DNA of 64,000 nt from a virus (taxonomy: Duplodnaviria > Caudoviricetes), in IMG/VR virus record IMGVR_UViG_3300030095_004938, positions 3,695-67,694 of that record; one strand, written 5' to 3'. A program made the position numbers and the translations under genes. Shown piece after piece: positions 11,558-40,200 of the stretch (position 1 is its first letter; every line of letters begins with the position of its first letter). The notes below the pieces were generated by a model that was not told the origin of the DNA, did not search any database, and saw only the letters and a program-made list of their open reading frames with translations.

Positions 11558-12454
11558 ATGGCCCCGACCGAGACCCTGAGCCCCAAGGCGGTGGCCGACA
11601 TCTGGTACAAGAAGTCGATCGGCACGGGCACGACCGACGAGCAGCGCAGGATCGCCGAGCGCGGCTACCGTGCCCACTACGAGGACAACGGCATCGAGTG
11701 GCCCGGCAAGGTGTACTTCTTCCGGTCGCCTATGGCGGCGGCCCGCGCGTGCGCGAGGGCTTACGCGGAGTCCGAGGACATCGACTACTGCGTCGCTTAC
11801 GGCGAGGTCTGGTCCAGGCACATGGGCGGTCGAATGTGGCCGACCTGGCCCGCCTACATCGACTATGCGAAGCAGTTCCCGAACGATCACCCGCCGTCGT
11901 GCGACGCGATCCTGGACCAAGCCGAGTGCGGGTGGTGGTGGCCGACCGATGAAGGCGTGTGGGCCTCCGACAACCCGGTCGAGTACCACTGCGACGAGGA
12001 CCGGATGCCCCACAACGAGCACGGCCCGGCGATCAAGTGGGCGGACGGCGATGCGATCTACGCGATTCACTCGGTGGTCATTGAGGGGCGGTTCATCGAG
12101 GACCGCTCGACGATCACGCTGGATGTCATCGCCGAGGCAAGGAACATGGAGCTGCGCCGGGTGCTTCGAGAGCTGTACGGCAACGCCCGATACCTCCACG
12201 ACACGGGCGCCGAGGTGCTCGACATGGATCAGGTCCCGACCGTTTTGGCGAGGCCGAGCGACTACCCGTGGATTCAGCGCGCCCTGATGCGGGATCGTGA
12301 CGGGAATCGCTGGTTGATGACTGGCGACGGGAGCACGGAGGATGTCTACTGCATCCCTGTGGAGAAAACCACGGCGACGTGCGCCGCTGGGTACGACGCG
12401 CTGCGAGCCCACAGGGTGCGCGGCAAGACCATCAAGACCATTCTGGAGTGCTAG
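11558..12454 (+). CDS. DUF6745-like protein
   Basis: PVEYHCDEDRMPHNEHGPAIKWADG.AIYAIH...RNMELRRVL matches the DUF6745 pattern (LHxxxGPAIxYxDG...NxExRRV). Confidence 0.7.
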   Translation: MAPTETLSPKAVADIWYKKSIGTGTTDEQRRIAERGYRAHYEDNGIEWPGKVYFFRSPMAAARACARAYAESEDIDYCVAYGEVWSRHMGGRMWPTWPAYIDYAKQFPNDHPPSCDAILDQAECGWWWPTDEGVWASDNPVEYHCDEDRMPHNEHGPAIKWADGDAIYAIHSVVIEGRFIEDRSTITLDVIAEARNMELRRVLRELYGNARYLHDTGAEVLDMDQVPTVLARPSDYPWIQRALMRDRDGNRWLMTGDGSTEDVYCIPVEKTTATCAAGYDALRAHRVRGKTIKTILEC

Positions 12455-12904
12455 ATGATGCAGAGCGAAGAGGTGTTCGAGATCGTGTCCGACTCAGCCA
12501 AGGTGGCGGCGATGGCCGCGAAGTCCGACCGCGTCCGCGTCGTCGAGAAGCACGTCGTGTCCAGCACCGAGGTGTTCGAGATCCGGCAGGGTGACGTGAT
12601 GCTCTATATGTGCGAGCCGTTCAGCGACGACGAGCTGGACTCGTGGGAGCGCACGACCGATATGCAGCTCGCCCCCGGAAGCAGCAAGGGCTCCCGTCAC
12701 ATCATGGAGGACCCGAGCAAGGTCGAGATCTACATCACGCCGCGCTCTCGTGTGGAGCCGCTGGTCGGTCCTCGGCTGCGGGTCCTGGAGCGCACGCTGC
12801 TCACGCACCCCGATCACAACTTGGTGTCGCTGCCTGCGGGCGACTATTACATCCGCTTCCAGCGCGACCTCGAACGCGAGGAGATCGAGCGGCTCGCGGA
12901 CTAA
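12455..12904 (+). CDS. Conserved partner of DUF6745 (RQGDV...H...THPDH...LPAGxY.I..QR)
   Basis: His-containing motifs typical of the small gene adjacent to DUF6745 genes. Confidence 0.65.
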   Translation: MMQSEEVFEIVSDSAKVAAMAAKSDRVRVVEKHVVSSTEVFEIRQGDVMLYMCEPFSDDELDSWERTTDMQLAPGSSKGSRHIMEDPSKVEIYITPRSRVEPLVGPRLRVLERTLLTHPDHNLVSLPAGDYYIRFQRDLEREEIERLAD

Positions 12905-26006: not shown

Positions 26007-26417
26007 CTAGAAGGTGATGTCGGTCTGGAAGCGACGCACGCAGTGGCCGATCACGGTGAGCTTGTTGTCGTCACCGACGCCAACGTAGGCGCCGACAACG
26101 TAGTTCTGCCCGGTGGCCCTAACCCGGTGACCGCTCATAATCTGAACCGTGGCGTATCTGGGGATCGAGAAGACCATCTCTGAGGCAGTGCATGCGGCGG
26201 CGTTGGCGTCGTCGGCAGGACACACGTTGAACGTGACATCGACAGTCGCCGACGTATTGTTGTGGCACTCGATCCACACGGCGTCGACCACGTCTTGCGA
26301 CGTGATGTTGTGGATTTCGTCAGCTAGGGTCTGAGTGGTGCTGCCGATTCGTATCGGGCGGCCATCGGCGCTGCCGCTCAGCCTGTCTGTCAGCACTTCT
26401 CCGGGTCTTTCAGCCAT
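26007..26417 (-). CDS. Putative tail-associated structural protein
   Basis: Beta-rich 136-aa ORF, TAATG-coupled to the tail tip gene. Confidence 0.6.
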   Translation of the reverse strand: MAERPGEVLTDRLSGSADGRPIRIGSTTQTLADEIHNITSQDVVDAVWIECHNNTSATVDVTFNVCPADDANAAACTASEMVFSIPRYATVQIMSGHRVRATGQNYVVGAYVGVGDDNKLTVIGHCVRRFQTDITF

Positions 26418-29400
26418 TAGAGGATCTCCTGGTCAAGTCCGCGACGCTCTGGGGTGGCCTGCTCGATGCTAAGGCCCGGCGCCGTGATTCGAGTATGCAG
26501 CTTCTTCAACCTCATGTCGAAGCCTGTGTCGGGTCGTGTCGCGCGCAGCCGGAAGCGTACGTCAACAAGGCTGTAGAGCCCAGGCTGGTATCTCCGGAAC
26601 CCGCTCCATCCGTCAGAGGTCCCGTCTTCGTTGATCGAGACTTCCATCAACAGGCTCACCTCGCCGTTGCTCGGAAGCGGCGAGGTCGGACCTTCCCAGG
26701 TCCACGTGCTGTACACGTCGTCGGACCACGAGCCGACAGCGTACTCCCACGTCAGGCTGTGGACCTGCTCGGCCTCCCAGTACGCCTCGACGTAGCACAT
26801 CCGGTTCTCCCGTCCAGAATTGCCGGAGAGGGGGATGATGCGAGAGCTGGTCGACTCCCACACAGTCTTCGGGCTGGTCGTCTCTGTGGACGCGGGGTCC
26901 CAGTGAACATACCCATCGCCGTCCTCCGCGAACTCAGGCCCGAGAACCGGGTCGCCCGCCACGGGGACGTCTTTGATCCACCCCGACCCGCTCCCCTCGT
27001 CCTGCGCGTAGGTCTCCCATCGGCGGGTCTGGTCCGTGAGGTCCGGAACCTTATCTGAGTCGACGTAGGGCGACGGCTCGTACTCGACGACTAGCGGGTC
27101 CGAGTATTGCCCGCCCTCGTGAAGCGCGCAGAAGTAGAGCTTCGGCGTGGTGTAGTCCGATCCAACCCAGTCCCTGTTGCGGCCCCAGTTGAGCGAGCCC
27201 GGCGACGACGTGAACACACGGTACCCGAGCACCCATCCGCCACGCCTGCACTCGACGCTGAGCTGCGTGTCGTCAGGCGGGAGATCCCAGTCGTAGCGAG
27301 CGTAGCCAGCCTGTTCGCGTGCTTCAGCGAACGTTAGCGCGGAAGGCGGGGTAGACATCCCGAGGATGTAGATGCGACGGCGTGCGCATCTCTCGATCGA
27401 ACGCGACATGCCAAACCGAGTCACTGGCTGAACGGCGACCTCGACGTACTGGCCGGGAGCCCCGAACAGGCAGGCGCAGTCCGCGAACCTGTCGCCAGGC
27501 GCGGAGGTGCCCATGAGCTGCCAGCGCGCGCTCTCGCTGTCGATGGGCCGTCCCCAGATTCGGTACTCCTGGAGGACTATCAGGTCCTCTTTCACCGGGT
27601 CCCAGTTGACCTTGATGTGCGAGGTCCAGGAGCCGTTCGCGGTCTTCACGTTCCAGTCGTCAACGCCCGTGATCGTCGGGTTGCTCGGCGGCCTTAGCTG
27701 CCCCTGACCAGAGTCGACACCGCCGGACGCGCCGCCGTGGCCGTCGTTCGAGATCTCGATGATCTGGCCGTCGTCGGAGCGGTCGCTGTAGATGTCCTCG
27801 TTGTACTCGACGAACTCCACCTTGCTGACGAGCCCAGGCCCGAGAGTCATCGAAGTGATCTCAACGACCAACTCGTCGCCTGTGGTCACCGCCATGTACG
27901 GGTCGTGCCTGCCGGGCTCGAAGCCGAGGCCGAACGCGACGTTCGTGAAGAGCGTCTCGCCAGGGCCGAACGTGCCGACCTGACCGTCGATGAGCGGCTG
28001 ACTCTGCATCTCGTCGTTGCGGTCCTGGACGTACAGCGTGTCCGAGTCGGCAACAGTTAGCTCGCGGTCGATCGTGACGCCACGACGGGCCAGGCCAGCG
28101 TTGAACAGCGGGTGCTTGCCTTCGCACAGGGCAGCGTTCGAGACAAAGCACGAGCCTTCGGCGCTCTGGGTGAACCCGTCCGCACCAGGAGCGGGGTAGA
28201 TACCCACACGGATTGCGCTTGCGGCCAGGCCAGGTGAGTAGCGGAACCAGATGGTTAGGAAGTAGTCCGTCCCGTCGATGTTGGTGATCGTTGCGCCGCC
28301 ATCGACCTCCTTGTTCTCCAGCTCGATCTCTCCGCTGCTGAGGTTGAACAGAGCCCAGTAGCGCAGCCCGCCAGAGCCTGTGTCGAGAAGCTCCGCACGG
28401 ATCAGGCCGTTGCCCGTGTCGTTCGACGCGACAAACGAGAAGCAGTAGACGCCGGGCGGGAAGCCAGCAGCGGTCGACTGGTTGACGTACCCAACAGTTC
28501 CGCTCTGCGCGTCCTCCAGCTTGTACCTTGTGGAACCGAAGACGTCCGTGCCGCTGGAAACCACGGTCTCAAGACCACCCGCGATGTTCCACGACCCTCC
28601 AGTCAGGTCGTCGCCATCGCCGATGATCGACTGCGTACCAGGGGGCGCGTTCAGTGCGTAGCCGCCCTGTCCACGGGGGAGCAGGTCGCTCGACAGGCGC
28701 ACGGTGTCGCCGACCTGTAGAGACAGCGCGCTGGGGCCGATGCTGAACTCGCCGGTGCGGATGAGCAGGCGGTTGGCGTTCGCCTGGAAGTTGCCCTCCC
28801 TGGAAGCCTGCCCGTAGTTCGTGACACCGAACAGCTCGCGCTGGTCGCGGCGGATCTCGTTGAGGTCGGACGGGTTCACCACGCTGTCGTCGATGACCGT
28901 CGCAGTGTCCTGCTCGAACAGCCTGTCTCGGTTGAGGAAGAGGAAGTCGAAGCTGTTGAACCGCTCCTTCCTGTCGGTGTAGCTGATCTTGAAGCTGCCC
29001 GCCTGGATGGCAGAGTTCGTGATCAGCGCCACGGGGGTCTGCGGGTGGCTGTACCGGAAGCGGATGAGGTTGCCCTCCTTCACCGGCGCGGCACGACACA
29101 CCGAGAGCAGCTCGCCGAGCGCGTCCCACGCACCGCGCGCTGTGTCGTAGACGCCGTTGAACTCGAATCGCGCACCGGCGCCCTCGACGATCCAGCCTGC
29201 GGGCAGCTTGTTGTCGGCGTCTCCAGTGCCGTCGCCCATCGAGCCGGTGAGAGTCAGGTCGTCATCGTTCTGCCCCGTCCACCAGCTACCGACGGCGATC
29301 TCGCCGGGCTCCACAGCGAAGCACTTGATGACGTGGTATCCGGGCGCGTAAGCAACCGTCGCTCCAGGGTGAGCGGTGCCCAACGTGTCCACGCCGATGC

Positions 29401-32092
29401 TGTAGATCTCGTACCCACCGACGCCAGCGGGGGCGGAGTCCTCTGGCGTGTTCCCGTTGTAGTTGATGCCGGGGGTGGCGTCGTCGGGGAGGTTGCGCAG
29501 CCTGATGTAGTGGCCGGGCACCCACTCCTTCGGCAGTGATCCGTTGATCGTATCGCCGGTCGTCTGGTCGCGGTAGACGACGTGGATGGTGATCAGGCCA
29601 CGGATCTGGCCGCTGACCGGGTCGACGAAGTTCGGGTCGTACCAGATGTTCTCGCAGATCGCGTTGTCAGCCGTGCCGGTTGAGACGAGGGGCTTCGTGC
29701 CGTCGTAGACGATCTCGTCACAGTAGTCGGCGAGCGCCTTCGTCTCCGCGAGGTCGACGCGGTAGTCACCGGGGAGCTTGTAGAGGTTGTTCCCCTGCAC
29801 GATCGAGGCGGCGTGCCACGCAGGGTTCGCCGTGTACTCCGTCGAGTAGCTCGGGTTGTCCGTGCTGACGCCGTCCCAGATCGGAACCTTCAGGCACTCG
29901 TTGATGGCGCTCGACTGCGGGATGCGACCCCCGAGCTGCTCTGTGGCCTCGATGCGGAAGGCCATCAGCGCGTGGTTCGGGTAGATCAGTCCAGCGTAGG
30001 TGACGCCTTGCACCTCGACCCACTCCATGTCGTCCCTGGTCCTCGTGCTCGTCGAGTCCACGTTGGTTCGGACGATCTGGATGCGGGCCTTCATCTTTTT
30101 GACCTCGCCCGGCTCGACCGTGTCGACGATGCCGTCGCCGGCCAGAAGCGTGCCGCCGTTGGTCGTGATGTCGAGCGAGCCCCACCAGGGGTCAGGATCT
30201 CCGACCACAGGAGAGGCCGTGTTCGTGTCGGGGTCGGTCTCGATCAGCCACTCGCTGTTGATCTGCGGAACCGAGATGCCGCCGATCGAAGCGCCGACGC
30301 CTTCCTGGTAGAGCGCGACGACCTGAGACCCAGACAGGTTCGTGTTGAAGATCCTGACCGCGTCGACCAGCACGGTGTCACCCGTGTTCGTGCACATGAA
30401 GTCCGCCTGCGTGTGGTTGCGACCGATGCACAGCGGCGTGTCCGACCATGTCGGCGGAATCGGGGACAGATCTACGTTCTTCGCCAGGACACCGTTGATG
30501 TAGATCCTGTTCCGGCGAACGAGGTCGTCCGTGATGAACCACTCGCAGTAGATGTGGTTCCAGTTCCCTAGCTCGAACGACTGGCTGAAGTTCTCCTCCG
30601 TGTCGACCTGTCCGGTCTGCGACCAGATCTTCCAGACGACGGAGATGAAGACATCCGTCGGGTTGTTGATGGAAGCCTGCGACTCCAGGTAGACGGTCCA
30701 TCCGTTCGTTGCCGAGTTCGACGTGGAGGCGTCCTCGCTACCGATAAGGTAGATCCTGCGGCTCACGCCAGCAGCGATGGCGGGGTCGTTCTCCAGCTTG
30801 GCCCACAGCGACACGCCGATGCCGCGCGTGGACGAGCCGGGCGGGTACTGTTCGCCAGCGGATAGCGGGTTCGACACGTCGACCGCCGCCTGCATCCGAT
30901 CGGACTGGTCGGAGACGAAGCTGGCCGCGCTTCCACTCGCGCCAATCGCTGACGTCTGCGGGTCACGCAAGGGGACCTTGATCTCGAAGTCGAACTGACC
31001 CTGCTGCGCGAAGACAGGGAAGCCGATGCCCATGTTCGGGGGCTCCCTGTACCAGCCGTCGTTGTTGTCGCCGCCGGTCGTGATCGGCAGGTTGCTCCCG
31101 TCAAGCTCCTGATATCGGATGGCGTACTTGAACGGCGCGCTGGTGATCTCTCCGTTGGCGTTCGAGGAGTAGTACCCTCCAGACGGGCGAAGCCGAAGCA
31201 CCAGCTCGTCATACGCAGTCGTCACGTCGTAGGTGCGAGCGTACTCGTCCCAGTGCGGGTCGGTCGACGTGTCGGCCCAGTCGTAGGTGCCCTGGTCCCA
31301 GAGCACGGCGTCAGCGTCAACGCTGGCACCGGCAACCTCCTCCGAGGTCAACGCGAACGGACCCACAGCTTCCGGCACGACGAGCTGCTCGAAGCCAGCG
31401 ATGGGCTCCTGCTCGTTGTTGCCGAGCCTGACCTGAACGTAGACGTCGTCGTAGTTCTCGATCGGGTTCTCGTTGATGAAGATCTTGCCAGCGAAGTCAG
31501 CACCAGGCAGCTCAGTGTTCGGCGGCGTGTCTTCAGTCTGGCCCGCGACCGACTGGAACGGCCCCCAGCCGAACGACACGAGCTGGTACAGCGTCGAGGT
31601 CACGGGGCTGTAGGTCGACCGGATGTACTCGCCGATGATCGTGCCGCCAGTCCGCATCTCCCCGAACGCAACCTCGACCGGGCCGTGCTCAGTTCGGTTC
31701 TGGCTGATGCCCTGGAAGTTGTAGGTCGGGCTCGACTCGTCGTCCCTCGCCCGCGTCGGCTTGGGCGGCGGGAAGAGCAGGCTGATCACGAAGCCGACCG
31801 CAGCCGCGACGGCGGTCTGGATCAGGGTGATCAGGACGATCTGGCCGACCGTCAGCTCGCCGATGCCCTGCGGGACGGCTGTGACCACGACGCCGCAGTC
31901 CCTCTCCAGGGGATCGCACCACATCTCGCGCTCGACACGGTTGCCGTCGACCCACACCGCCGTGTGCTCGCTGCTGCGCAGCGGCTCGTCCAGCGCGTCC
32001 ACGATGTCGCGAACGCACGACGCCTCCATCGAGACCCGCTCGCGGCCAGCGAGCTTGAAGGGGTTCTTGGACGCGAGGACTTCAGCTCTCAT
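26417..32092 (-). CDS. Tail tip/hub protein (lambda gpI+gpJ-like fusion) with LamG and CBM-like insertions
   Basis: N-terminal ubiquitin-like plus hydrophobic gpI region; PVEVAFGEMRTGGTII; IYPNHALMA; NPAWHA; FEFNGVYD; FGVTNYGQASR gpJ-like motifs. Confidence 0.88.
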   Translation of the reverse strand: MRAEVLASKNPFKLAGRERVSMEASCVRDIVDALDEPLRSSEHTAVWVDGNRVEREMWCDPLERDCGVVVTAVPQGIGELTVGQIVLITLIQTAVAAAVGFVISLLFPPPKPTRARDDESSPTYNFQGISQNRTEHGPVEVAFGEMRTGGTIIGEYIRSTYSPVTSTLYQLVSFGWGPFQSVAGQTEDTPPNTELPGADFAGKIFINENPIENYDDVYVQVRLGNNEQEPIAGFEQLVVPEAVGPFALTSEEVAGASVDADAVLWDQGTYDWADTSTDPHWDEYARTYDVTTAYDELVLRLRPSGGYYSSNANGEITSAPFKYAIRYQELDGSNLPITTGGDNNDGWYREPPNMGIGFPVFAQQGQFDFEIKVPLRDPQTSAIGASGSAASFVSDQSDRMQAAVDVSNPLSAGEQYPPGSSTRGIGVSLWAKLENDPAIAAGVSRRIYLIGSEDASTSNSATNGWTVYLESQASINNPTDVFISVVWKIWSQTGQVDTEENFSQSFELGNWNHIYCEWFITDDLVRRNRIYINGVLAKNVDLSPIPPTWSDTPLCIGRNHTQADFMCTNTGDTVLVDAVRIFNTNLSGSQVVALYQEGVGASIGGISVPQINSEWLIETDPDTNTASPVVGDPDPWWGSLDITTNGGTLLAGDGIVDTVEPGEVKKMKARIQIVRTNVDSTSTRTRDDMEWVEVQGVTYAGLIYPNHALMAFRIEATEQLGGRIPQSSAINECLKVPIWDGVSTDNPSYSTEYTANPAWHAASIVQGNNLYKLPGDYRVDLAETKALADYCDEIVYDGTKPLVSTGTADNAICENIWYDPNFVDPVSGQIRGLITIHVVYRDQTTGDTINGSLPKEWVPGHYIRLRNLPDDATPGINYNGNTPEDSAPAGVGGYEIYSIGVDTLGTAHPGATVAYAPGYHVIKCFAVEPGEIAVGSWWTGQNDDDLTLTGSMGDGTGDADNKLPAGWIVEGAGARFEFNGVYDTARGAWDALGELLSVCRAAPVKEGNLIRFRYSHPQTPVALITNSAIQAGSFKISYTDRKERFNSFDFLFLNRDRLFEQDTATVIDDSVVNPSDLNEIRRDQRELFGVTNYGQASREGNFQANANRLLIRTGEFSIGPSALSLQVGDTVRLSSDLLPRGQGGYALNAPPGTQSIIGDGDDLTGGSWNIAGGLETVVSSGTDVFGSTRYKLEDAQSGTVGYVNQSTAAGFPPGVYCFSFVASNDTGNGLIRAELLDTGSGGLRYWALFNLSSGEIELENKEVDGGATITNIDGTDYFLTIWFRYSPGLAASAIRVGIYPAPGADGFTQSAEGSCFVSNAALCEGKHPLFNAGLARRGVTIDRELTVADSDTLYVQDRNDEMQSQPLIDGQVGTFGPGETLFTNVAFGLGFEPGRHDPYMAVTTGDELVVEITSMTLGPGLVSKVEFVEYNEDIYSDRSDDGQIIEISNDGHGGASGGVDSGQGQLRPPSNPTITGVDDWNVKTANGSWTSHIKVNWDPVKEDLIVLQEYRIWGRPIDSESARWQLMGTSAPGDRFADCACLFGAPGQYVEVAVQPVTRFGMSRSIERCARRRIYILGMSTPPSALTFAEAREQAGYARYDWDLPPDDTQLSVECRRGGWVLGYRVFTSSPGSLNWGRNRDWVGSDYTTPKLYFCALHEGGQYSDPLVVEYEPSPYVDSDKVPDLTDQTRRWETYAQDEGSGSGWIKDVPVAGDPVLGPEFAEDGDGYVHWDPASTETTSPKTVWESTSSRIIPLSGNSGRENRMCYVEAYWEAEQVHSLTWEYAVGSWSDDVYSTWTWEGPTSPLPSNGEVSLLMEVSINEDGTSDGWSGFRRYQPGLYSLVDVRFRLRATRPDTGFDMRLKKLHTRITAPGLSIEQATPERRGLDQEIL

Positions 32093-32447
32093 AGCGGTAG
32101 ACTCCGACCCTGCCCCGGATCTTCGTGATGCGGGTGATGAAGACGCCGTGGTGCCTCGACGAGGAGATCACTCGCTCGCGCGTGGGCTCGCAGACCGCCG
32201 AGACGTGCATGAGCCCGTCCGGCTCCTCGGAGATCAGGATGTCGCCCACCTGGAGCGGCTCGCCGTTCCCCAGCTCCCTCCAGGCTGCCTGTGGAGCCCC
32301 CTGCGAGCAGCAATCCACCAGCGACTCCGCAGCCCCGTGCATCCCCGCGCGCCGCAGCAGGGCCGTTGAGGCGGCCAGGCAGTCCGATTCCGGCACCGAC
32401 CAGGGCTGGCCGATCAGGTCGCTACAGTCGATGGAGGTTCTAGCCAC
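32082..32447 (-). CDS. Tail assembly protein, NlpC/P60 (gpK-like)
   Basis: LIGQPW...DC...GDIL...HVSAV...VISS; GTG 32447; lies between gpL-like and gpJ-like genes. Confidence 0.75.
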   Translation of the reverse strand: MARTSIDCSDLIGQPWSVPESDCLAASTALLRRAGMHGAAESLVDCCSQGAPQAAWRELGNGEPLQVGDILISEEPDGLMHVSAVCEPTRERVISSSRHHGVFITRITKIRGRVGVYRYES

Positions 32448-33141
32448 GCGGGATTCCCGGCTCGCCGCCGAAACGCGCGGGGTGCTTGCGCGTGAGCGAG
32501 TTCGCCTCTTCATCATCCCCAACGAGAGTGCAGGCAGCAAGGCTGAAGGGCCGCGCCACCTCGACCCCGTCTGTGGTCACGCCGCACTTCGAGTAGCCCG
32601 CCGAGGAATTGAACGTATTGTAGCCACACTGCTGGCTGCCGAAGGCCCACTTGCACGAGAAGCGGGAGTAGATCAGTTGCGGGAAACGAGCCTGGAAAAG
32701 CTCCGTCCCGGCCACAGTGAAGCGCATCCCCTCGTGGGTGAGCATCATGTCCGCCACCTTCGCGGTCTCGTCGATGATGGCCTCGCCGGAGTCCAGGTCC
32801 AGCGTGGACACCGCGATCACTCTGATCGGGTTGCCCACAAACCCATCGCTCGGGTCGATAACGAGTGGGCTGATCGGCCCGCTGTTCCCGATGGCGATCT
32901 CCAGCGTAGGCAGGTCTCCCTCGCTGGTCTCTTCGAGGTTGCCGAGAACCATCGGCACGGGGTAGTAGATGAACGCCTCGCCGTTGGAATCCGAGCCCCA
33001 GTAGAGGCGCTTGTCGAAGTTCGTCAGCCGGTATCGTCGCGGAGGGTCCTGACTGTCCTGAATCTCCACAAGGAAGATGAACGGCGCGTTGGCGACGAGC
33101 TGGTTCTTGTGCAGCGTCGCGATGTTGGTGAGGCTTCTCAT
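32440..33141 (-). CDS. Minor tail protein, gpL-like
   Basis: FLVEI...YRLTN...YYPVP, C-terminal CKWAFGSQQCGY...C...C...FGGEPGIP iron-sulfur-type Cys pattern. Confidence 0.85.
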   Translation of the reverse strand: MRSLTNIATLHKNQLVANAPFIFLVEIQDSQDPPRRYRLTNFDKRLYWGSDSNGEAFIYYPVPMVLGNLEETSEGDLPTLEIAIGNSGPISPLVIDPSDGFVGNPIRVIAVSTLDLDSGEAIIDETAKVADMMLTHEGMRFTVAGTELFQARFPQLIYSRFSCKWAFGSQQCGYNTFNSSAGYSKCGVTTDGVEVARPFSLAACTLVGDDEEANSLTRKHPARFGGEPGIPRG

Positions 33142-36100
33142 CAGACGTTGACCTTGGGCTGGCCGAAGAACGACTGGTGGTAGTCGAGGAGGATAACTCT
33201 GGCGTCAATGTCTGCCTGAACTCCGCTCGCGGCGATGTTGTTCGTTTCGCCGGGATCAACGCTCAGGTCGTACATCTCGTAAGCCTGGCCCTGCGTGACG
33301 GGGCCGTTGGGATAGTTCTTTGCGTAGATGCGGCGCACCTTGTATCCCTCGGCTGCTCCGCTCTCCGATGACCCGACGACGCTCATGTCGTACTCGTAGT
33401 ACTCCGTCGTCACGGTGTGGATGTAGCCAGGCTGGAACACGCAGTGGCTGGTGATCGCCTTGCCAGCCGACGACCCCGTGCCGAACGCATCGTAGAAGCT
33501 AACCCCGTCGATCTTAGCGTAGTCGTCCGTCGTGACGAAGTCCCGCCAGTTCGGGGAGATGATGTCGAGGATCGTCGGGTAGAAGTCCATCGCGTCGATG
33601 TACCTGTCGCAGTCCGTTCCTCTGAGGGCGGTCGGGATCAGCGGCCCCCACACGAGCAGCGGGGTCAGGATGCCCTCGTCCTTCGTGCTGCCCTTCGCGT
33701 CGTCGGCGATGTGGTACTGCGTTCCGCCAGTAGTGCCGTCGGATGTCGGCGGAAATGAGTTGTACCAGGGGTCCAGGGGAAACCCACTTCCAAGCCCCCT
33801 GAACTCCGTCGTCGTCATCGGCTCAAGAACGCTCTTGTCGCCGCCATTGTCGGCGTAGTGCATGAACGTCGTGAGCGCATAGGCGTCTGGATGGTTGACC
33901 TGGATGTAGTTTTCAATCTCTTTGGTCAGGGTGTCCACCGCCTCCATCATCGCGACGAACCGGCGGAACGGCGTGTGCACCTGGCCCTCTGGGCCATACG
34001 GGTACGACAGGTAGGGCTCCGAATCCCGGTCAACGAAGACGTACGGAGCCCCCCCGTTGTCGTCCTCGTAGCTTGTTCCGGACGCGTTCCATCCGCCTTC
34101 GTCGGTTTCACCGTTGGTTCCTCGCGCATTCTCCACAAGCTCCGCCTGCGTGTAGGTGCTGTGGAGCTGAACGCTGCGCCCCGACGGGTTGGCCGGGTCG
34201 ACGAGCAGATGGTTCTGAGCGAGCTGCGGCCACAGTCCGTGCGGAAGGTTCGTCTCGAAGTCGACGACGAAGGGCTTCCCGGCGCTCACGCACTCATTGA
34301 TGAAGTAGGTGATCTTCTTGTACATCAACGCCGGGCTGAAGATGTTGCCCTCGGGCAGGTCGTCACCGGCGAAGTAGGTAGTCTGGTCGCTCTGAGTCGT
34401 GTAGATGTACGGGTAGCTAAAGTATCCGTAGTCGGGCTCGCCAGGGTCGCCGCTCGTGTTCGTCAGCAGCGCCTCGTGAGACTCTGTGAATCCAGCCTCG
34501 TCGACGATGTCCCTTGGGCTGTTCCTGTTCGAAAGCGCGCCGCTCCCGCCACCGGGCCCGCTGTAGTCAAAGAGGTGGTACTTGCCGAACATCGCGATGC
34601 CGTGCTGAACGCCGGAGTCCGTCGCGATCTTGGGCCACGGATTCTGCCCTGACTTGATGCCCTCGTAGAACGGGTCTTGCTGCGGATAGGTGGCCGGGTT
34701 CGGAGTATTGCCGAGGACGTCACCGATGCCAGTACCGTAGGTGTGGAGCGGAGTCCGATGGCCCTGCCTGCCGGTGAAGATAGCAGCGCGCGTCGGAGCA
34801 CAGCGCGCATTTACGCGGGCCTGAGTGAAGCGCATGGCCCGCCCGAGCACGTCGCCATCCAGGTGCGCCATGTTTGGGTACGGGAAGTTGTCAGCAACGC
34901 CAGGCCACCTGTTCTCCGCGTCGTAATAGGGAATCATCGAACGCGGGACGTCGTCCATCATAAAGAGGACGAGGTTGTTCGCGGGCGGGCCAGCCTGCGG
35001 GTTGAAGAGCTGAGTGCCGAGCACCTCCTCGATCGTTGCCGTGACGTCACCGACGCCGGTACCTTCCGCCGTGTGGACGTGCTTGTAGGGCAGCGAGGCG
35101 TTGAGGAACCTGACCGTCACGGTCTCGCCGGTGTCCTCACGAGTCCAGTCGAACGGGATGCTACCCGCGTAGTTCGAGCGGTAGATCCTGTGGAAGGCGT
35201 CGGTCTCTTCGTAGGTGCCCCCACTGAGCTTGATGTTCCACCGCCTGCGCCTCGTCGAGAGCTGCGGGCCGGAGTTCATAAAGCCGGTCTGCGTCCGCAT
35301 CCTGCGGTCGACGTCGCAGTATTCCTCGGTGATCGACCAGGACAGCGGCGTCACCAGGGAGCCGGACTTGTTCGTGTCCTCAGCGTCGAGGGGGATGGAG
35401 AGCTGGTCCTGGTCGGGCGGGTCGCCGGGCAGGCTCGGCGCGTCCACAGAGAAGCTGTTCCACCTGACCGCGTTGGCGAGGTAGGAGGACCCAGCGTGCT
35501 CGTACTTCACCCCGATGCCGATACCGTCCAGGACTGCGTTGCTGCTGATGTCCGTGACGTACCCATCGACGAACTCCACACCGATCCCAGCGGAGCCTTC
35601 GGCCACCACGAACGTCTGGTTGACCGAGTCCAGAGCCACGCGCATAGCCACGAAGTCGCCCTGGCCCTGGTTGATGTTCTGGCACTCGAAGTCGATCTCG
35701 AAGGGCACTCCGCTAGTCGGAGCGGTGATCGCAGCGGTCTGCGCGATGACCGGCGCGTCTTCGCCGCTTCCAGTCTCGCCGTCGTTGAACCGCTGGATCT
35801 GGATGCGCGTGTCCACGCCGTCCTTGACGATCGAGGCGACGTAGGCGTTGTGCGCGAAGTCGACGACGGTGCCGTCGGGGAGGCCGCCAGCCGTCTGTAG
35901 CCGCGACCGAAGGACTGCCAGGTTGCCCGCGCTCGGGATGTACTTCGGCGTGTACCGAAGCACCACCCCAAGCTCGTACTGAGTTGCGGCGTCGATGGTG
36001 AAGGTGGCCTTCGCGCGCTGCTGCGGATCAGAGACCATGTCCTGCCGCAGATACCACCCGTAGTTCTGGTCCTCGTCGGTCGAATACGAGGTGTGGGTGA

Positions 36101-37286
36101 ACGGGTCCGCCCCAAGGACGACGTAGTCGTTGGTCTGGTCTCCGAGAAGGTGGCTGTGGTGGCTACTGAACTCGTTCGGGTCGTTGGAGGGGTTCGTCCC
36201 CATGCCGGACCCGTGCTCGTCGCCTGTCCACGCCTGCTGGAGACTGTTGCCGCCGGGCTGGAACTGCGGGTACGTCGCGTGCGCCGGGACACGGTAGCCG
36301 AGGCGGTGGAAGGGACGCCGGAACTCGTCGCGGATGAACAGGTTGAGCGGCGTGAGCGTCGACACCTCGAAGCTCTTCACCGTCATGTAGGACTGGTAGT
36401 TGCTGCCGACAACGAACCCCTGCGTCCCGAAGCCCCAACGGCCTGGAGCATCGGTGAAGAGCGCGTCGTCCTCATCGAAGATCAGGACTTCACCCTTCAC
36501 CTGGACGCCACCGCCTGTAGATCCCACCAGGACCGGGTCCGCGTTCTGGTAGGGGCGAACGAGCGCCGGTCCTATTTCTGCGTAGCACCGGACCCTCGTG
36601 CCCTGGCAGACCATGCGGAGGGAGCGAGGCTTGAAGTGGTTGAACGGCTGGACTGAAGAGACCGCCCCATCAAGCACCGCTCCCGAGTTCTCAACCCTGA
36701 CGGAGTAGGAGACCGTCGGGGCTCCTGCTGAAAACTTCCCGAGCACGAACCAGTCCGCCAGCTCACCCTCGTCCCTCATGTGGCCGAAGAAGATCCCTTG
36801 CGGCTCCTTGATGTAGTACCTCGGCGTGTCCGTGAAGCCAGGTGAGGTCGCGACTCCGAGGGTGCCGAGTCGGACCCTGCCGTAGACGAAGTACCCCTCC
36901 AGACTTCGAGCGTTCGCGCTGCCGGAGTCGTACATCGCGAAGTTCGCCTTGACCTGGGCGTCGTTCGCCCAGAGCTGCCGATCGACACAGGAGAAAAGCC
37001 GAACGTCTCTGGGGTCCCCTGGCGTACTGTCGAACTGTCCGTCGTGCTCCTGGAAGCACGCCTCGAACTGAAACCCAGGTGAAACCGGAGCGTCGAGGGA
37101 GCCGCGAGCGTGAAGCACGCCGGGGATGCTGTAGAAGTTCTTGTCGAACCCACTGCCGGTGAAGTGACCGTTGGGGCTCGTGCCACTGGAGTTGCTGACC
37201 GTGATCCCCAGGTAGCGATCGGGGAACCTGTAACCGACTAGGTCGTTGACGAGGAAGTCTTCAGTGCTGGGCCAGACTTGAGTCAT
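33141..37286 (-). CDS. Distal tail (Dit/gpM-like) protein fused to N-terminal beta/lectin-like domains and a C-terminal formylglycine-dependent sulfatase
   Basis: Follows the tape measure gene; Dit-like core at ~35019-35363; sulfatase motifs FMMDD, CAPTRAAIFTG (34788-34802 for CAPTR), FGKYH, LPH, ADNGG, AKGS, DFYPTILD, YDLSVDPGETNNIA. Confidence 0.88.
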   Translation of the reverse strand: MTQVWPSTEDFLVNDLVGYRFPDRYLGITVSNSSGTSPNGHFTGSGFDKNFYSIPGVLHARGSLDAPVSPGFQFEACFQEHDGQFDSTPGDPRDVRLFSCVDRQLWANDAQVKANFAMYDSGSANARSLEGYFVYGRVRLGTLGVATSPGFTDTPRYYIKEPQGIFFGHMRDEGELADWFVLGKFSAGAPTVSYSVRVENSGAVLDGAVSSVQPFNHFKPRSLRMVCQGTRVRCYAEIGPALVRPYQNADPVLVGSTGGGVQVKGEVLIFDEDDALFTDAPGRWGFGTQGFVVGSNYQSYMTVKSFEVSTLTPLNLFIRDEFRRPFHRLGYRVPAHATYPQFQPGGNSLQQAWTGDEHGSGMGTNPSNDPNEFSSHHSHLLGDQTNDYVVLGADPFTHTSYSTDEDQNYGWYLRQDMVSDPQQRAKATFTIDAATQYELGVVLRYTPKYIPSAGNLAVLRSRLQTAGGLPDGTVVDFAHNAYVASIVKDGVDTRIQIQRFNDGETGSGEDAPVIAQTAAITAPTSGVPFEIDFECQNINQGQGDFVAMRVALDSVNQTFVVAEGSAGIGVEFVDGYVTDISSNAVLDGIGIGVKYEHAGSSYLANAVRWNSFSVDAPSLPGDPPDQDQLSIPLDAEDTNKSGSLVTPLSWSITEEYCDVDRRMRTQTGFMNSGPQLSTRRRRWNIKLSGGTYEETDAFHRIYRSNYAGSIPFDWTREDTGETVTVRFLNASLPYKHVHTAEGTGVGDVTATIEEVLGTQLFNPQAGPPANNLVLFMMDDVPRSMIPYYDAENRWPGVADNFPYPNMAHLDGDVLGRAMRFTQARVNARCAPTRAAIFTGRQGHRTPLHTYGTGIGDVLGNTPNPATYPQQDPFYEGIKSGQNPWPKIATDSGVQHGIAMFGKYHLFDYSGPGGGSGALSNRNSPRDIVDEAGFTESHEALLTNTSGDPGEPDYGYFSYPYIYTTQSDQTTYFAGDDLPEGNIFSPALMYKKITYFINECVSAGKPFVVDFETNLPHGLWPQLAQNHLLVDPANPSGRSVQLHSTYTQAELVENARGTNGETDEGGWNASGTSYEDDNGGAPYVFVDRDSEPYLSYPYGPEGQVHTPFRRFVAMMEAVDTLTKEIENYIQVNHPDAYALTTFMHYADNGGDKSVLEPMTTTEFRGLGSGFPLDPWYNSFPPTSDGTTGGTQYHIADDAKGSTKDEGILTPLLVWGPLIPTALRGTDCDRYIDAMDFYPTILDIISPNWRDFVTTDDYAKIDGVSFYDAFGTGSSAGKAITSHCVFQPGYIHTVTTEYYEYDMSVVGSSESGAAEGYKVRRIYAKNYPNGPVTQGQAYEMYDLSVDPGETNNIAASGVQADIDARVILLDYHQSFFGQPKVNV

Positions 37287-40200
37287 CGGTTGCGCCCTCT
37301 CTGCTGCGCTTGTCGGACACCCCTGACCAGCTTGGAGCTTCGACCGCGTAGCAGCGAGCCGCCCAGCGTGTCAGCGATCCTCGGCATGGCCTTGTCGATC
37401 GCGCGGTCCACAGACGCCTCGACCTGAGCCGGGTCCTGTGCTCCGCGAGCGTCGACCGTGATCGGCATCGAGATCTCGGTGGTGGTGTTATAGACCATGC
37501 CGTTGCCGACAGGGGTCTGCGTCGCCGTAGACGAGTGCGCCATCTCCACACGGTTGATGAGGTCCATCGTGAGCTTCTGCATCTCGGCGAGGCCGGTGAT
37601 GTTGAGCTTGACCGGGATGTTCTTGCCGTCGGGCAGGGGAACGAACGCCTCGGCGCCGTCGCCCTCGCCGAAGATCGCGAACTGAGGCGAGTTTGCGACG
37701 CCGCCGCTGGCGTAGGCGTTGATCGGGAGGTTGCCCCTGCCGAGCATCTTGCCCTGCATGATGCCGCCACGGGCGAACGACCCGTCTGCCTGCGGTGGCC
37801 CGATCGGGCCGTCGCCGCCTCCGCCTCCGAGGTTGAACACGCCTGCCAGCTTCTGGATCGCGATCAGCGTCAGCAGCTCGGCGATGATGTTGCCGATCAC
37901 CTTGATCGCGGTCTGCCCGAGCGCCTCCCACGAGAACTGGTTGTTCGCGAGGTCGTTCACGAGCTGCCGTGTGATCAGCGCGAGGCCCTGGCCCGCACGC
38001 TCGCCAGCCTCGGCCCAGTCCTCCACAGCGTCGATCGCTTGCTCGTAGCCGAAGACCAGGGCTTCGCCGAAGCTCGCGTCGGCGATGGCCTGCTGCTGCT
38101 CCTTGATCTTGCGCAGCACCTCGATCTGCTCGTAGAGCAGCCGGACTTCCTCCTCTGAGAGGCCCGCGTTCAGCAGCAGCCGCTCGCGCTCTGCGATGGC
38201 GGCCTCGGTCTTCGCCACGTTGAGCGCCAGCGTCGCCTGCCGCTCCTTGCCGAGGATGGACAGCAGGTCGGCGTTGATCTCACCCAACTCTTCGCGGAGG
38301 TCGACCTCGCGCTCGATCTGCTGGTTGATCAGGTCGTTGACCTGCGCGTCGGCCAGCGCCTGCGTGAGCGGAATCAGCGCCTGGTACTCTTCCTTGAGGT
38401 CGGCGTTGCCCTGGATCTTCGCGTTGAGCGAGGCCACCTCGGCGGCTGCGTTCGCGTCGATGGCCGCGATCTGGTCTTCAAGCGACAGCGTGACCTGCGC
38501 CTGAAGGCCGAAGATCTTCGCGATGGACGACGCCCGCTGCGCCTCAAGCTCCAGGCCGCTGGCGTTGACGTCCTGCTGGACGGCGAGGAGGCGCTGGAGT
38601 GCAGCGATCTGCTCTTCAACGATCGCGACCTGATCGCTGCCTTCGGCGAGGCCAGCCTGGACTGCCTTGGCTTCCTCGATCCTCGACTGGATCTTCGCCT
38701 CGGACAGAAGCTCCGCAGCCTCGCGCTCTCTGCCGAGAAGGGAAAGCGTCTCTGCCGTGATGTCGTTCAGCTCATCCTGAAGTCGAGCCTGGTTGCGGAG
38801 TGCTGCGCTCTCGGCGTCACGGCTGCTCGCATCGGCCACTGCATTGATCAGGTGGAGCAGCTCCTGAAGTTCCTCGCGCAGCTCGCTGTTCTTGGCGATG
38901 CGCTCCTTCAGTGCGACTACGGCGACGCGGCGGTTCGCCTCGATGGCGGTGAGCTGATCCTCCAGCGACCCAGTGAGTTGGACCTGAAGCTTCGCGGCGT
39001 CGGCGAAGGCGTCCACACGGGCCGACTGGCCACTGAGGGCGGCGAGGTCGCGCTCCTGCGCCACCAGACCGGCTGTGGCAGCCTTCCTCGCGTTGACCGT
39101 CTCCAGGACGAGCTTGGACTGTGCCTCCAGCTCGGCGGCCCTACGGGCGATCTCAGCCTCCGTCTCGGCGGACTCCTCCCCCGCCGTGGCGAAGTCCTTC
39201 TGGAACGTCAGGATCGCCTGGTTGAGCCGGTCGATCTCCTGGAGGTTGTCGATCTGAGCTTGCAGACCCTTGGCCGTTGCCGTGTCGCCACGGACTTCTG
39301 CGAGCCGAAGCTCCAGTTGCAGCAAGTCCTTGTCGCGGTTGAGGAGGATGTCGAGTTCCTTCGACTCACCCCTGACCTGATCCCTGATGCGACCGGCGAC
39401 TTCGAGCCTGCGGTTGTTCACCGTCTCGCCATCGCGAAGCTCCTCGTTGAGCGCCTCGCTGACCGTCTTCAGCTCCTTGCCGATCTGCACGACCCGCTCG
39501 GCGTCTTCGAGGGCGCCACGGCTGACCACCTGGAAGCCTCCGTCCTCGCCGAGGCTGACAGAGATCAGATCGCGGAGCGGGTCAAGGCCCGAAGCGAACG
39601 CCTGCGCCGACGCAGCTCCCGCCTCCTGAAAGACCGAAGACACGCGGGTCGGGTCCACCTCGATCGGAGACAGGAGGTCCCCGTCAGCGAACGCCTCCTC
39701 AACTCCAAGGCGGAACCGTAGCGCAAACTCATCCACGGCTGCGGAAGCCGCCTTGGCGCCTGCAAGCTCGGCACCGGCCTGGACCGACTGCTCTGCGATC
39801 TCAGTCGCACTAACGCCTCCGAAGTCATCACCAACGCGAGTCCTGTCCCGCTGCTCTGCGAATCGAATCTCGTCCGCACGGGATTCCGCATACGCCTTTC
39901 CGGCTGCCTTGCCCGCCTCGATGGCGACAGCCCTGGCGCTTGCGATGTAGTCGGCCTGCTCTGACGGCGGGATTTCCGCCAGGTCAATTTCAAGCTGAAG
40001 TCCGCCAGGAAGATCGAGCGCGAACTTCTCGATCTCTGATAGAGAGCCAGCGCCGATCACTCCGAGGTCCTGAAGCCTCGCGTTTAGCTTGGCTGAGGCA
40101 ATCTCAAGATCGCTGATCGCCCCTTTAGCTGCGATGGCCTGCCTGACGACCTCATCGAACGACTCCTGCGTGCCGCTCCTGCTGTCGAGGATTCCAAGAA

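What the first reader, a model, noticed from the sequence alone, without database searches (positions are those of the whole stretch)
33141..34980. Apparently intact formylglycine sulfatase fused to the distal tail (Dit/gpM-position) protein: a candidate virion-borne sulfatase
Seen: the gene right after the tape measure gene and before the gpL/gpK/gpJ-like genes encodes ~640 aa of beta-rich domains, then a ~115-aa Dit/gpM-like core (WSITEE...RRRRWNIKL...IPFDWT...VTVRF...TIEEVL, ~35019-35363), then ~610 aa with every canonical S1 sulfatase residue in order: DD (FMMDD), CAPTRAAIFTG (CxPxR at 34788-34802), GKYH, PH, DN (ADNGG), K (AKGS), DFYPTIL and YDLxxDPxExxN. Established: S1 sulfatases need Cys-to-formylglycine conversion by FGE or anaerobic maturases, and evolved Dits are known to carry carbohydrate-binding modules. 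Inference: a hexameric ring of sulfatases at the tail tip could strip sulfate from a sulfated capsule, EPS or glycoprotein coat. No maturase is encoded here, so the phage would depend on a host enzyme. I am not aware of a characterised structural sulfatase in a phage tail.
Basis: partly seen in the sequence, partly recalled or inferred. Interest (0 to 1): 0.93.

Follow-up and report, generated by a model that had tools for sequence, protein, structure and literature searches.

The report
Phage distal-tail protein carrying a sulfatase
An uncultured tailed phage has welded an apparently intact sulfate-removing enzyme onto the ring protein at the tip of its tail, and I found no published example of such a particle-borne sulfatase.

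Summary
Window 33141-37286 (-) is one uninterrupted 1381-aa gene, translationally coupled to the tape-measure gene upstream and a gpL-like gene downstream.

**Three parts**
- Residues 1-620: lectin/CBM-like beta-sandwiches.
- Residues about 640-760: a lambda gpM-type distal-tail (Dit) core.
- Residues 770-1381: an S1 formylglycine sulfatase with its catalytic residues in place.

**Not an assembly artefact**
- The same fusion, in the same gene order, occurs in a 63%-identical phage seen in two other datasets.
- The nearest sulfatase-less relative (781 aa, same gene order) stops right after the core. The sulfatase is therefore a 3' gain.

**New here**
- The sulfatase belongs to a small clade found mainly on phage contigs. 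It stands alone in podovirus-like contigs and is fused to a capsid-cement domain in a Mu-like myophage.
- Only 2 of about 185,000 cellular species genomes carry it. One is a Planctomycetaceae MAG.
- The two Dit-fused domains are not sisters, which suggests module exchange.

**Still open**
- No FGE or radical-SAM maturase is encoded, so maturation would depend on the host.
- Activity, substrate, virion incorporation and host are all inferred.
- This scan noted other phage sulfatases on other DNA, none on a Dit.

The parts
37283..41542 (-). Tail tape measure protein, 1419 aa; its stop overlaps the start of the next gene (ATGA)
   Evidence: PF10145 PhageMin_Tail 76 bits and 11 PHROG tape-measure families. 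Junction read.
33141..37286 (-). Whole fusion gene, 1381 aa (P0001): lectin-like domains + gpM-type Dit core + S1 sulfatase
   Evidence: Single ORF. 63%-identical full-length homologue P0004 with the same gene order.
35427..37286 (-). Residues 1-620: ConA-like lectin / CBM66-like beta-sandwich domains
   Evidence: AF2 model with 65-sequence alignment, mean pLDDT 83.5. VIA-align Z 13-14 to CBM66, legume lectins, Mycobacteriophage Douge central fibre gp20 and TM4 gp23 receptor-binding domain. Foldseek hits to tandem galectins and laminin-G pairs.
35007..35369 (-). Residues about 640-760: lambda gpM-type distal tail protein (Dit) core
   Evidence: Family profile versus PDB: 8iyk_M E 6.4e-4, then 6tba RcGTA Dit, 9l9p_H, 8gtc_G. 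hhalign to lambda gpM probability 84.5%, residues 656-729 versus gpM 16-88. Foldseek 9l9p_H prob 1.0, TMt 0.53. BFVD minor tail proteins TMt 0.65-0.74. 82% identical between the two fusion phages.
33144..34979 (-). Residues 770-1381: S1 (formylglycine-dependent) sulfatase domain with C-terminal subdomain
   Evidence: PF00884 37.5 bits over cut-off 25, weak PF16347 at 1288-1361. PDB sulfatases. Clade alignment with invariant catalytic residues.
34788..34802 (-). C829-A-P-T-R833, the formylglycine (CxPxR) motif
   Evidence: Translation. Aligned to CSPTR of 6uss. C, P, T and R are invariant in all 16 clade members.
32440..33141 (-). gpL-like tail tip protein, 233 aa; its start overlaps the fusion gene's stop (TGATG)
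   Evidence: Four invariant Cys (C163, C172, C186, C204) in three homologues. The motif C-x-W-x6-CGY aligns with lambda gpL 155-187, though the hhalign probability is low at 11.6%. Junction read. No Pfam or PHROG hit.
32082..32540 (-). Small ORF in the gpK position (152 aa as listed; 128 aa called in the relative). Identity not established.
   Evidence: ORF list. Homologous position in L001 and L002. No family hit.
26417..32092 (-). gpI-gpJ-like central tail fibre / tip attachment protein, 1891 aa, with a LamG insert
   Evidence: phrog_31 central tail fiber J 232 bits, phrog_32 tail assembly protein at 77-158, PF13550, PF13385. Lambda J 8iyk_J E 3e-10.

Best explanation
The gene encodes the distal tail protein of a lambda-like siphovirus tail tip. 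Its gpM-type core would form the ring under the tail tube, six copies if lambda's stoichiometry holds.

The core carries two outward-facing additions:
- N-terminal lectin-like domains, which would bind a glycan.
- A C-terminal Cys-type S1 sulfatase, joined to the family's natural C-terminus by only about 8 residues.

The proposed sequence of events is as follows. The protein is made in the host cytoplasm. A host formylglycine-generating system converts C829 to formylglycine before or during folding. The protein is then built into the virion. On contact with a cell, the lectin domains hold a sulfated surface or matrix polysaccharide. The sulfatases remove sulfate esters from it. This would expose or create the receptor for the gpJ-like tip, or let the tail pass through a polyanionic layer. 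It is a substituent-stripping, receptor-modifying enzyme, analogous to deacetylase tailspikes rather than to backbone-cleaving depolymerases.

Shown here: the architecture, family memberships, conservation of the catalytic residues, conserved fusion and gene order, and absence of a phage maturase. Inferred: formylglycine formation, activity, substrate, incorporation and copy number, and the host.
For: **Architecture and position**
- One ORF, coupled to the tape measure gene (ATGA) and to the gpL-like gene (TGATG).
- gpM/Dit core.
- Lambda chain counts in the PDB are 30 gpM chains in 5 entries and 15 gpJ chains in 5 entries. That is 6 gpM and 3 gpJ per tip.

**Sulfatase membership and intact catalytic set**
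- PF00884 above its cut-off.
- DD, CxPxR, SDNG and KGS aligned to solved sulfatases.
- D778, D779, C829, P831, R833, K902, H1016, D1146, N1147 and K1198 are invariant or nearly so across 16 clade members at 31-61% identity. This argues for selection on catalysis.

**Real fusion**
- P0004/L001 and L002 carry it with the same neighbours.
- 93 family members mostly end at the core. The closest, P0005 (781 aa), sits in identical gene order without a sulfatase.
- Other members carry different add-ons after the core (Calx-beta, unknown), so the Dit C-terminus is a display slot.

**Independent virion link for the same clade**
- P0101 is a Phage_cement_2-sulfatase fusion in a Mu-like myophage contig.
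- Phage copies lack signal peptides, whereas the two cellular ones have them. This fits action from the particle or after lysis.

**Lectin-like domains**
- They resemble phage receptor-binding domains.

**Maturation by the host is plausible**
- Both cellular genomes with the clade hold 12 and 22 FGE-domain genes.
Against: - There is no experimental evidence of any kind.
- No model of the sulfatase domain was obtained. The single-sequence AF2 run failed.
- The Pfam match is only 37.5 bits, with about 170 residues of insertions. The substrate pocket is therefore unlike any characterised subfamily, and no substrate can be assigned.
- The phage encodes no FGE or anSME and the host is unknown, so maturation is an assumption.
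- The sequence hit to gpM is weak (E 6.4e-4). The Foldseek match to 9l9p_H has TMt of only 0.53, because the model was not cut to the domain.
- Nothing shows that the C-terminal domain stays attached in the virion.
- Most clade members in phages stand alone and sit outside tail modules, next to terminase genes. The clade's basic role may therefore not be virion-bound.
Confidence: 0.58

Rival explanations
1. The domain is displayed on the virion but works as a binding module, not an enzyme. Without a dedicated maturase the cysteine stays unmodified, and the pocket simply grips a sulfated or otherwise anionic glycan, acting as an extra adhesin alongside the lectin-like domains.
For: - No FGE or radical-SAM gene in the phage.
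- Evolved Dits are known to carry binding modules rather than enzymes (PMC6669499, PMC10688798).
- The same protein already has lectin-like domains.
- From general knowledge, Cys-to-Ser/Ala sulfatase mutants still bind substrate.
Against: - The whole catalytic set, including metal ligands and general acid/base residues that are not needed for mere binding, is invariant across clade members down to 31% identity.
- The CxPxR-xxx-x-TG-R context that FGE recognises is conserved.
- The candidate host lineage is rich in FGE-domain genes.
Confidence: 0.14
2. The enzyme is active and virion-borne, but its target is the environment rather than the host envelope. It would desulfate algal or particle-gel polysaccharides (fucoidan-, carrageenan- or ulvan-like) or debris. 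This would let the phage diffuse through a sulfated matrix to reach surface-attached hosts, or avoid being trapped after release, acting as a receptor-destroying enzyme at exit.
For: - The same clade is fused to a capsid cement domain, that is, on the head and not at the adsorption device.
- It also occurs as stand-alone genes outside tail modules.
- The contig labels suggest aquatic metagenomes, but no habitat record was available.
- The nearest large sulfatase clusters are mostly from Planctomycetota. From general knowledge, these bacteria live on sulfated algal polymers.
Against: - In this phage the enzyme sits exactly at the tail tip beside the receptor-binding protein, together with lectin-like domains. 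That is the place expected for action on the host surface.
- Desulfation alone does not depolymerise a gel.
Confidence: 0.15
3. The domain is a catalytically active member of the S1/alkaline-phosphatase superfamily but hydrolyses another ester. It could be a phosphonate monoester or phosphodiester hydrolase of the formylglycine type, acting on a phosphorylated envelope polymer.
For: - The clade is very divergent from every characterised sulfatase. The best PDB match is E 1e-15 even with a profile, and there are large insertions.
- Some neighbouring Atlas clusters also carry PF01663 Phosphodiest.
- From general knowledge, formylglycine-dependent phosphonate monoester hydrolases share the CxPxR motif.
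Against: - All 23 PDB hits are sulfatases.
- Pfam assigns Sulfatase plus the SGSH_C-type C-terminal subdomain, and no phosphodiesterase family.
Confidence: 0.1
4. Artefact: the long ORF is a mis-assembly or a sequencing-error read-through that joins a normal Dit gene of about 770 aa to a separate sulfatase gene.
For: - The closest sulfatase-less relatives end within about 10 residues of the junction.
- Stand-alone sulfatases of the same clade exist in other phages.
- Reads could not be inspected.
Against: - A 63%-identical phage assembled independently in an ENA sample and in an IMG/VR sample has the same uninterrupted fusion, with a conserved junction FNPxAGPPAxNLVLFMMDD.
- The downstream gpL-like gene is coupled to the end of the sulfatase, not to the end of the core.
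Confidence: 0.02

Closest known systems
Lambda tail tip protein M (gpM, PF05939; PDB 8iyk chain M) and the RcGTA distal tail protein (DUF2460/PF09343; PDB 6tba)
   Same: - Same gene position, directly after the tape measure and before a gpL-like protein with four cysteines and a gpJ-like tip.
- Same core of about 110 aa by profile (E 6.4e-4; hhalign 84.5%) and by fold.
   Different: - Lambda gpM is 109 aa and bare.
- Here the core is the middle of a 1381-aa protein, with about 620 aa of lectin-like domains in front and a 612-aa enzyme behind.
- P0001 itself does not reach the Pfam threshold for either family. Only sub-threshold hits in homologues were seen.
Evolved Dits of siphophages of Gram-positive bacteria (lactococcal 936/skunaviruses, Bacillus phage Deep-Purple; PMC6669499, PMC10688798, PMC9128512)
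   Same: A distal tail protein used as a scaffold to display extra carbohydrate-directed modules around the tail tip.
   Different: - Those carry non-catalytic carbohydrate-binding modules inserted in the galectin-like arm of a classical two-domain Dit.
- Here the core is the small gpM type. The additions are terminal, and one of them is an enzyme that needs a post-translational formylglycine.
Substituent-removing virion enzymes: the O-antigen deacetylase tailspike gp63.1 of coliphage G7C (reviewed in PMC10743462)
   Same: A virion-borne enzyme that would modify a surface polysaccharide by removing a side group instead of cutting the backbone, as a step in adsorption.
   Different: - Different chemistry (sulfate ester versus acetyl ester), fold (alkaline-phosphatase-like versus SGNH esterase) and carrier (Dit ring versus tailspike).
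- G7C's activity is demonstrated. This one is predicted.
S1 formylglycine-dependent sulfatases with solved structures: Pedobacter yulinensis sulfatase 6uss (PMC8746622), Bacteroides mucin/GalNAc sulfatases 7oza, 7stt, 7all, 7p24, and carrageenan sulfatases 9fo1, 6b0j
   Same: Same Pfam family, CxPxR motif, metal ligands, catalytic Lys/His and C-terminal subdomain.
   Different: - Those are secreted or periplasmic cellular enzymes of 450-540 aa.
- This clade has about 170 residues of insertions and no signal peptide in its phage copies.
- It is found mainly in phage contigs and is fused to virion proteins.
- The SulfAtlas subfamily was not determined.
Phage-encoded sulfatase-maturation genes reported as auxiliary metabolic genes (FGE in Pseudoalteromonas phages, PMC10232697; AslB in huge phages, bioRxiv 10.64898/2026.10.24.761521)
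   Same: Shows that phages interact with the sulfatase/formylglycine system.
   Different: - Those phages carry the maturase, and the papers interpret it as metabolic support for the host.
- This phage carries the sulfatase itself, on a structural protein, and no maturase.

Membership tests
S1 (type I, formylglycine-dependent) sulfatase, Pfam PF00884 | Sequence match to the family model above the curated threshold | tested here: met
   PF00884 37.5 bits versus cut-off 25, residues 771-1242 on model positions 2-298 of 301. Same result on the whole phage record. The clade profile hits 23 solved S1 sulfatases, best at 1e-15.
S1 (type I, formylglycine-dependent) sulfatase, Pfam PF00884 | C/S-x-P-x-R formylglycine motif with the downstream xxx-(L/M/F)-T-G-(R/K) context | tested here: met
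   C829-APTR-AAIFTGR. Aligned to CSPTRCSLITG of 6uss. C, P, T and R are invariant in 16 clade members.
S1 (type I, formylglycine-dependent) sulfatase, Pfam PF00884 | Divalent-metal ligands (N-terminal DD pair, later D-N pair) | tested here: met
   D778/D779 align to DD of 6uss and 7oza. D1146/N1147 align to SDNG of 6uss. D1146/N1147 are invariant and D778/D779 nearly so across the clade.
S1 (type I, formylglycine-dependent) sulfatase, Pfam PF00884 | Catalytic Lys/His set (ARSA K123, H125, H229, K302 equivalents; numbering from memory) | tested here: inconclusive
   - K1198 aligns to the GKGS lysine of 6uss and 7oza.
- K902 and H1016 are invariant in the clade.
- H904 is Gln in the cellular members P0102, P0103 and P0110.
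- K902, H904 and H1016 were assigned by motif order only. No structure-based alignment was obtained, because the AF2 model failed.
S1 (type I, formylglycine-dependent) sulfatase, Pfam PF00884 | Cys actually converted to formylglycine, and sulfate-ester hydrolysis | not testable with these tools
   Needs expression with an FGE, mass spectrometry and assays. The phage has no FGE and no radical-SAM gene.
gpM-type distal tail protein (lambda gpM PF05939 / DUF2460 PF09343) | Sequence relationship to the family | tested here: met
   - P0001 alone gives no Pfam hit.
- A profile of 65 family members hits lambda gpM 8iyk_M at E 6.4e-4. The next three hits (6tba, 9l9p_H, 8gtc_G) are all Dit or minor tail proteins on the same columns.
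- hhalign to lambda gpM gives probability 84.5%, E 7e-6.
- Homologues give sub-threshold PF09343 and PF05939 hits.
- The relationship is weak but consistent.
gpM-type distal tail protein (lambda gpM PF05939 / DUF2460 PF09343) | Fold of the core domain | tested here: met
   In the AF2 model the core blocks have pLDDT of about 86-95. Foldseek matches T1 tail tip complex chain H with prob 1.00, TMt 0.53, 114 columns. BFVD minor tail proteins of 110-125 aa match at TMt 0.65-0.74, rmsd 3.4-4.1. The aligned range in the model is not printed by Foldseek.
gpM-type distal tail protein (lambda gpM PF05939 / DUF2460 PF09343) | Gene position: directly after the tape measure, before gpL-like and gpJ-like genes | tested here: met
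   The same order is seen in L001, L013 and the contig of P0015.
gpM-type distal tail protein (lambda gpM PF05939 / DUF2460 PF09343) | Forms the ring between tail tube and tip in the virion | not testable with these tools
   Needs virion proteomics or cryo-EM.
Evolved Dit (Dit carrying carbohydrate-binding modules) | Dit core decorated with carbohydrate-binding-module-like domains | tested here: met
   Residues 1-620 match CBM66, legume lectins, galectin-like proteins and phage receptor-binding domains at Z 11-14. Glycan binding itself was not tested.
Evolved Dit (Dit carrying carbohydrate-binding modules) | Classical two-domain Dit (belt plus galectin arm) with the module inserted in the arm | tested here: not met
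   The core is the single small gpM-type domain of about 110 aa. The extra domains are N- and C-terminal, not inserted. It works like an evolved Dit but is not a member of that structural class.

The most novel reading that the evidence does not exclude
A small clade of formylglycine sulfatases is essentially a phage gene family and a mobile virion-display module. It moves by recombination between siphoviruses (on the Dit ring), myoviruses (on a capsid cement protein) and podovirus-like phages (stand-alone). These particles are armed by a host-catalysed Cys-to-formylglycine modification. That would be the first case of a virus structural protein depending on that modification, and of desulfation as an adsorption or penetration step. 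It points to sulfated envelope or matrix glycans as a barrier in the still unknown, possibly planctomycete, hosts.
Probability: 0.45. Interest if true: 0.85.

Novelty: new variant of a known kind. Interest (0 to 1): 0.78.

Why it matters
Virion-borne enzymes that open a path through bacterial surface glycans are central to phage host range. The known ones are glycosidases, lyases and deacetylases. A sulfatase on the tail tip would add a new chemistry.

It would also imply that sulfated surface or matrix polymers act as phage barriers or receptors in poorly studied aquatic bacteria. It would be a rare example of a virion protein that needs a host post-translational maturation system, which is a possible host-range determinant in itself.

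The clade also offers compact, signal-peptide-free sulfatases of unknown specificity for glycobiology. The recurrent fusions give a direct, testable handle: express, mature, assay, and image the tail tip.

Tried and rejected
- **Sulfatase model.** Single-sequence AF2 of the sulfatase domain gave pLDDT 31 and was unusable. That spent one of two folding jobs, so there is no model of the enzyme.
- **Dit core with the gpL-like protein.** Complex prediction scored 0.28 against a mark of 0.32. This is no verdict and is not used either way.
- **Reads.** No read-level check of the junction and no habitat information were obtained.
- **Isolated phages.** tblastn of the whole protein against 50,697 phage records found no match.
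- **Haloarchaeal host.** I considered this because haloarchaeal S-layer glycans are sulfated and the GC content is 64%. I rejected it because protein pI values and acidic content are ordinary.
- **Host search.**
  - The search for related loci with the broad Dit alignment failed for lack of conserved stretches.
  - The capsid protein searched in 301 genomes of the Planctomycetaceae MAG's phylum gave only distant matches of 29% identity or less. The host is therefore not established.
- **FGE in other phage contigs.** Searching the metagenome contigs that carry the clade was not possible because the records are not held. Their precomputed Pfam lists show no FGE in the flanks.
- **gpL-like and gpK-position proteins.** Pfam and PHROGs gave nothing, and phmmer of the gpL-like protein against the PDB gave nothing.
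- **Partner genes.** Pfam/PHROG scans of the 500-aa gene next to the stand-alone sulfatases (L003) and of other neighbours gave nothing.
- **Literature.** Searches for a phage, viral or virion sulfatase, or for sulfatase together with distal tail protein, found no such report.


Full report
**1. What is there**

The window is most of a 67.7-kb IMG/VR virus record that CheckV rates complete. On the minus strand it carries a siphovirus structural module:
- portal, protease and HK97-type capsid protein;
- two large tube-like paralogues;
- a 1419-aa tape measure (PF10145);
- the gene in question at 33141-37286 (1381 aa, P0001);
- a 233-aa protein, then a small ORF;
- an 1891-aa gpI-gpJ-like tip protein (phrog_31, PF13550, lambda J 8iyk_J E 3e-10).

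The three central genes are translationally coupled. The junctions are ATGA at tape measure/P0001 and TGATG at P0001/233-aa gene.

**2. The sulfatase part (residues 770-1381)**

- Pfam Sulfatase scores 37.5 bits against a cut-off of 25, spread over 472 residues for a 301-position model. That means about 170 residues of insertions. There is a weak SGSH_C hit at the C-terminal subdomain.
- phmmer finds the solved sulfatases 6uss and 7oza. The DD pair, CxPxR, the KGS lysine and DFYPxIL are aligned.
- A profile of 16 clade members finds 23 solved S1 sulfatases (best 1e-15) and also aligns the SDNG metal site.
- D778, D779, C829, P831, R833, K902, H1016, D1146, N1147 and K1198 are invariant or nearly so across the clade, down to 31% identity.

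The domain is therefore an S1 sulfatase whose catalytic apparatus is under selection. Its subfamily and substrate are unknown.

**3. The Dit part**

phmmer of residues 1-769 against 1.84 billion representatives gave 93 relatives. Most are 660-780 aa and end where the core ends, typically at '...EEvF....FNP..'.

A 65-member alignment (A2) gave these results:
- Against the PDB, lambda tail tip protein M is the best hit (E 6.4e-4). The RcGTA distal tail protein, the T1 minor tail protein and another Dit follow, all on the same profile columns.
- hhalign to lambda gpM gives 84.5% probability, aligning P0001 656-729 with gpM 16-88.
- Homologues give sub-threshold DUF2460 and Phage_min_tail hits.

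An AF2 model built with A2 has mean pLDDT 83.5:
- Foldseek matches the T1 tail-tip chain H (prob 1.0, TMt 0.53) and small BFVD minor tail proteins (TMt up to 0.74).
- Residues 1-620 are ConA-like lectin/CBM66-type sandwiches. They also resemble mycobacteriophage receptor-binding proteins (Z 13-14).

The next gene has four invariant cysteines. Its C-x-W-x6-CGY motif aligns with lambda gpL. From memory, gpL holds an Fe-S cluster.

PDB chain counts give 6 gpM and 3 gpJ per lambda tip. Six sulfatases per tail is therefore the expectation, but it has not been shown.

**4. The fusion is real and is a gain**

- P0004 (1364 aa, 63% identical) lies on a 20.7-kb ENA contig with the same order: tape measure, fusion, gpL-like, small ORF, gpJ-like.
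- An IMG/VR contig carries the same protein as P0004 in the overlap.
- The junction FNPxAGPPAxNLVLFMMDD is conserved.
- The closest sulfatase-less relative is P0005 (781 aa, 40% identical). It sits in the same gene order, including the two tube paralogues, and stops just after the core.
- Other family members carry other additions: Calx-beta or unknown domains after the core, and Big_9/cadherin repeats before it.

The Dit C-terminus is thus a display slot, and the sulfatase is one occupant.

**5. The sulfatase clade is mostly phage-borne**

The closest relatives of the domain alone (31-57% identity) are as follows:
- Stand-alone genes of 553-656 aa on phage contigs. One group lies beside a T7-type terminase (L003, L004). 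Another lies upstream of Terminase_3, portal and an SU10-type adaptor (L007, with L015 and L016). A third lies upstream of a terminase large subunit (L017).
- One fusion to a Phage_cement_2 domain (PF09956, 44 bits), on a Mu-like myophage contig (P0101, L005).

On distribution, IMG/VR holds six contigs with the clade besides this one. Among about 185,000 cellular species genomes, only two clear members appeared. One is an uncultured Planctomycetaceae MAG and the other an unnamed MAG. Both cellular copies have signal-peptide-like N-termini, whereas the phage copies do not. Both genomes hold many FGE-domain genes, 12 and 22. The nearest large Atlas clusters are mostly from Planctomycetota, which is a lead only.

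**6. Module exchange**

A maximum-likelihood tree of the domain places this phage's domain with the T7-like-terminase stand-alone genes (support 95/96). The domain of P0004 groups with the SU10-like stand-alone genes (100/100).

The two proteins are 73% identical before the junction, and 82% in the core. They are only 56% identical after it. Their gpL-like neighbours are 82% identical. This fits replacement or repeated capture of the sulfatase module. It is not proof, because the tree is unrooted and rates may differ.

**7. Maturation**

The phage record has no FGE and no radical-SAM gene. A Cys-type sulfatase would therefore depend on a host system. From general knowledge, bacterial FGEs and anSMEs act in the cytoplasm on unfolded sulfatase. 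That is compatible with tail assembly there, but it is inference.

**8. Comparison with the known**

- Evolved Dits carry binding modules (PMC6669499, PMC10688798, PMC9128512).
- Virion enzymes that strip a substituent are known, such as the G7C deacetylase tailspike (PMC10743462).
- Phages are reported to carry FGE or AslB as auxiliary genes (PMC10232697; bioRxiv 10.64898/2026.10.24.761521).
- No paper in the searchable library describes a virion or tail sulfatase.
- Notes from this scan mention other phage sulfatases on other DNA: one beside tail-fibre genes, one upstream of packaging genes, as in L007 and L017 here. None is on a Dit. Those notes are unchecked.

**9. Verdict**

Activity, substrate, incorporation into virions and the host remain open. 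This is a new variant of known kinds: an evolved Dit, and a receptor-modifying virion enzyme. It has wider interest because the clade recurs on virion proteins of unrelated phages.

Noticed in passing
L005:10001-12316 (protein P0101): A member of the same sulfatase clade (45% identical, catalytic residues intact) is fused behind a Phage_cement_2 (PF09956) domain in a Mu-like myophage contig. A 185-aa paralogue with the same cement domain lies just upstream (L005:9052-9609). An Acb2/Tad1-hairpin gene lies just downstream (12279-12557).
   Followed up: partly
window 33144-34979 versus L001:11900-13699: The sulfatase domains of the two Dit fusions are not sister sequences. Each groups with stand-alone genes of a different phage type (support 95/96 and 100/100). 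Identity drops from 73% to 56% at the junction, which suggests exchange of the enzyme module between phages.
   Followed up: partly
L004:235-1896 (= L014:205-1884; protein P0098): This stand-alone phage sulfatase lacks the N-terminal strand with the DD metal ligands. The open frame starts only 48 residues before CxPxR, although about 230 bases of contig lie upstream. It may be truncated, frameshifted or wrongly started.
   Followed up: no
window 42504-44030 and 44061-45659 (-): There are two tandem proteins of about 510-530 aa upstream of the tail chaperone and tape measure genes, with no Pfam hit. The same pair is kept in the relatives L001 (529 and 509 aa) and L013 (522 and 514 aa), so the duplication is conserved.
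   Followed up: partly
window 32440-33141 (-): The 233-aa protein after the fusion gene has four invariant cysteines. Its motif C-x-W-x6-CGY aligns with lambda gpL, although no family model recognises it. It is a very divergent gpL.
   Followed up: partly
window 26417-32092 (-): The gpJ-like protein begins with a gpI-like tail-assembly segment (phrog_32 at residues 77-158; PDB 25vf chain 9, E 5e-4). It also carries a Laminin_G_3 insert at 422-591.
   Followed up: partly
proteins P0015, P0035, P0045 (relatives of residues 1-769): Other members of this Dit family carry 550-850 residues after the core with no Pfam match. These are further unknown modules displayed at the same slot.
   Followed up: no
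L003:4625-6127 and L004:1893-3395: A conserved 500-aa gene with no family match always follows the stand-alone sulfatase in the T7-like-terminase phages. It could be a partner or carrier protein.
   Followed up: partly
window 6488-6561 (-): A single tRNA-Pro (TGG) lies among the early genes.
   Followed up: no
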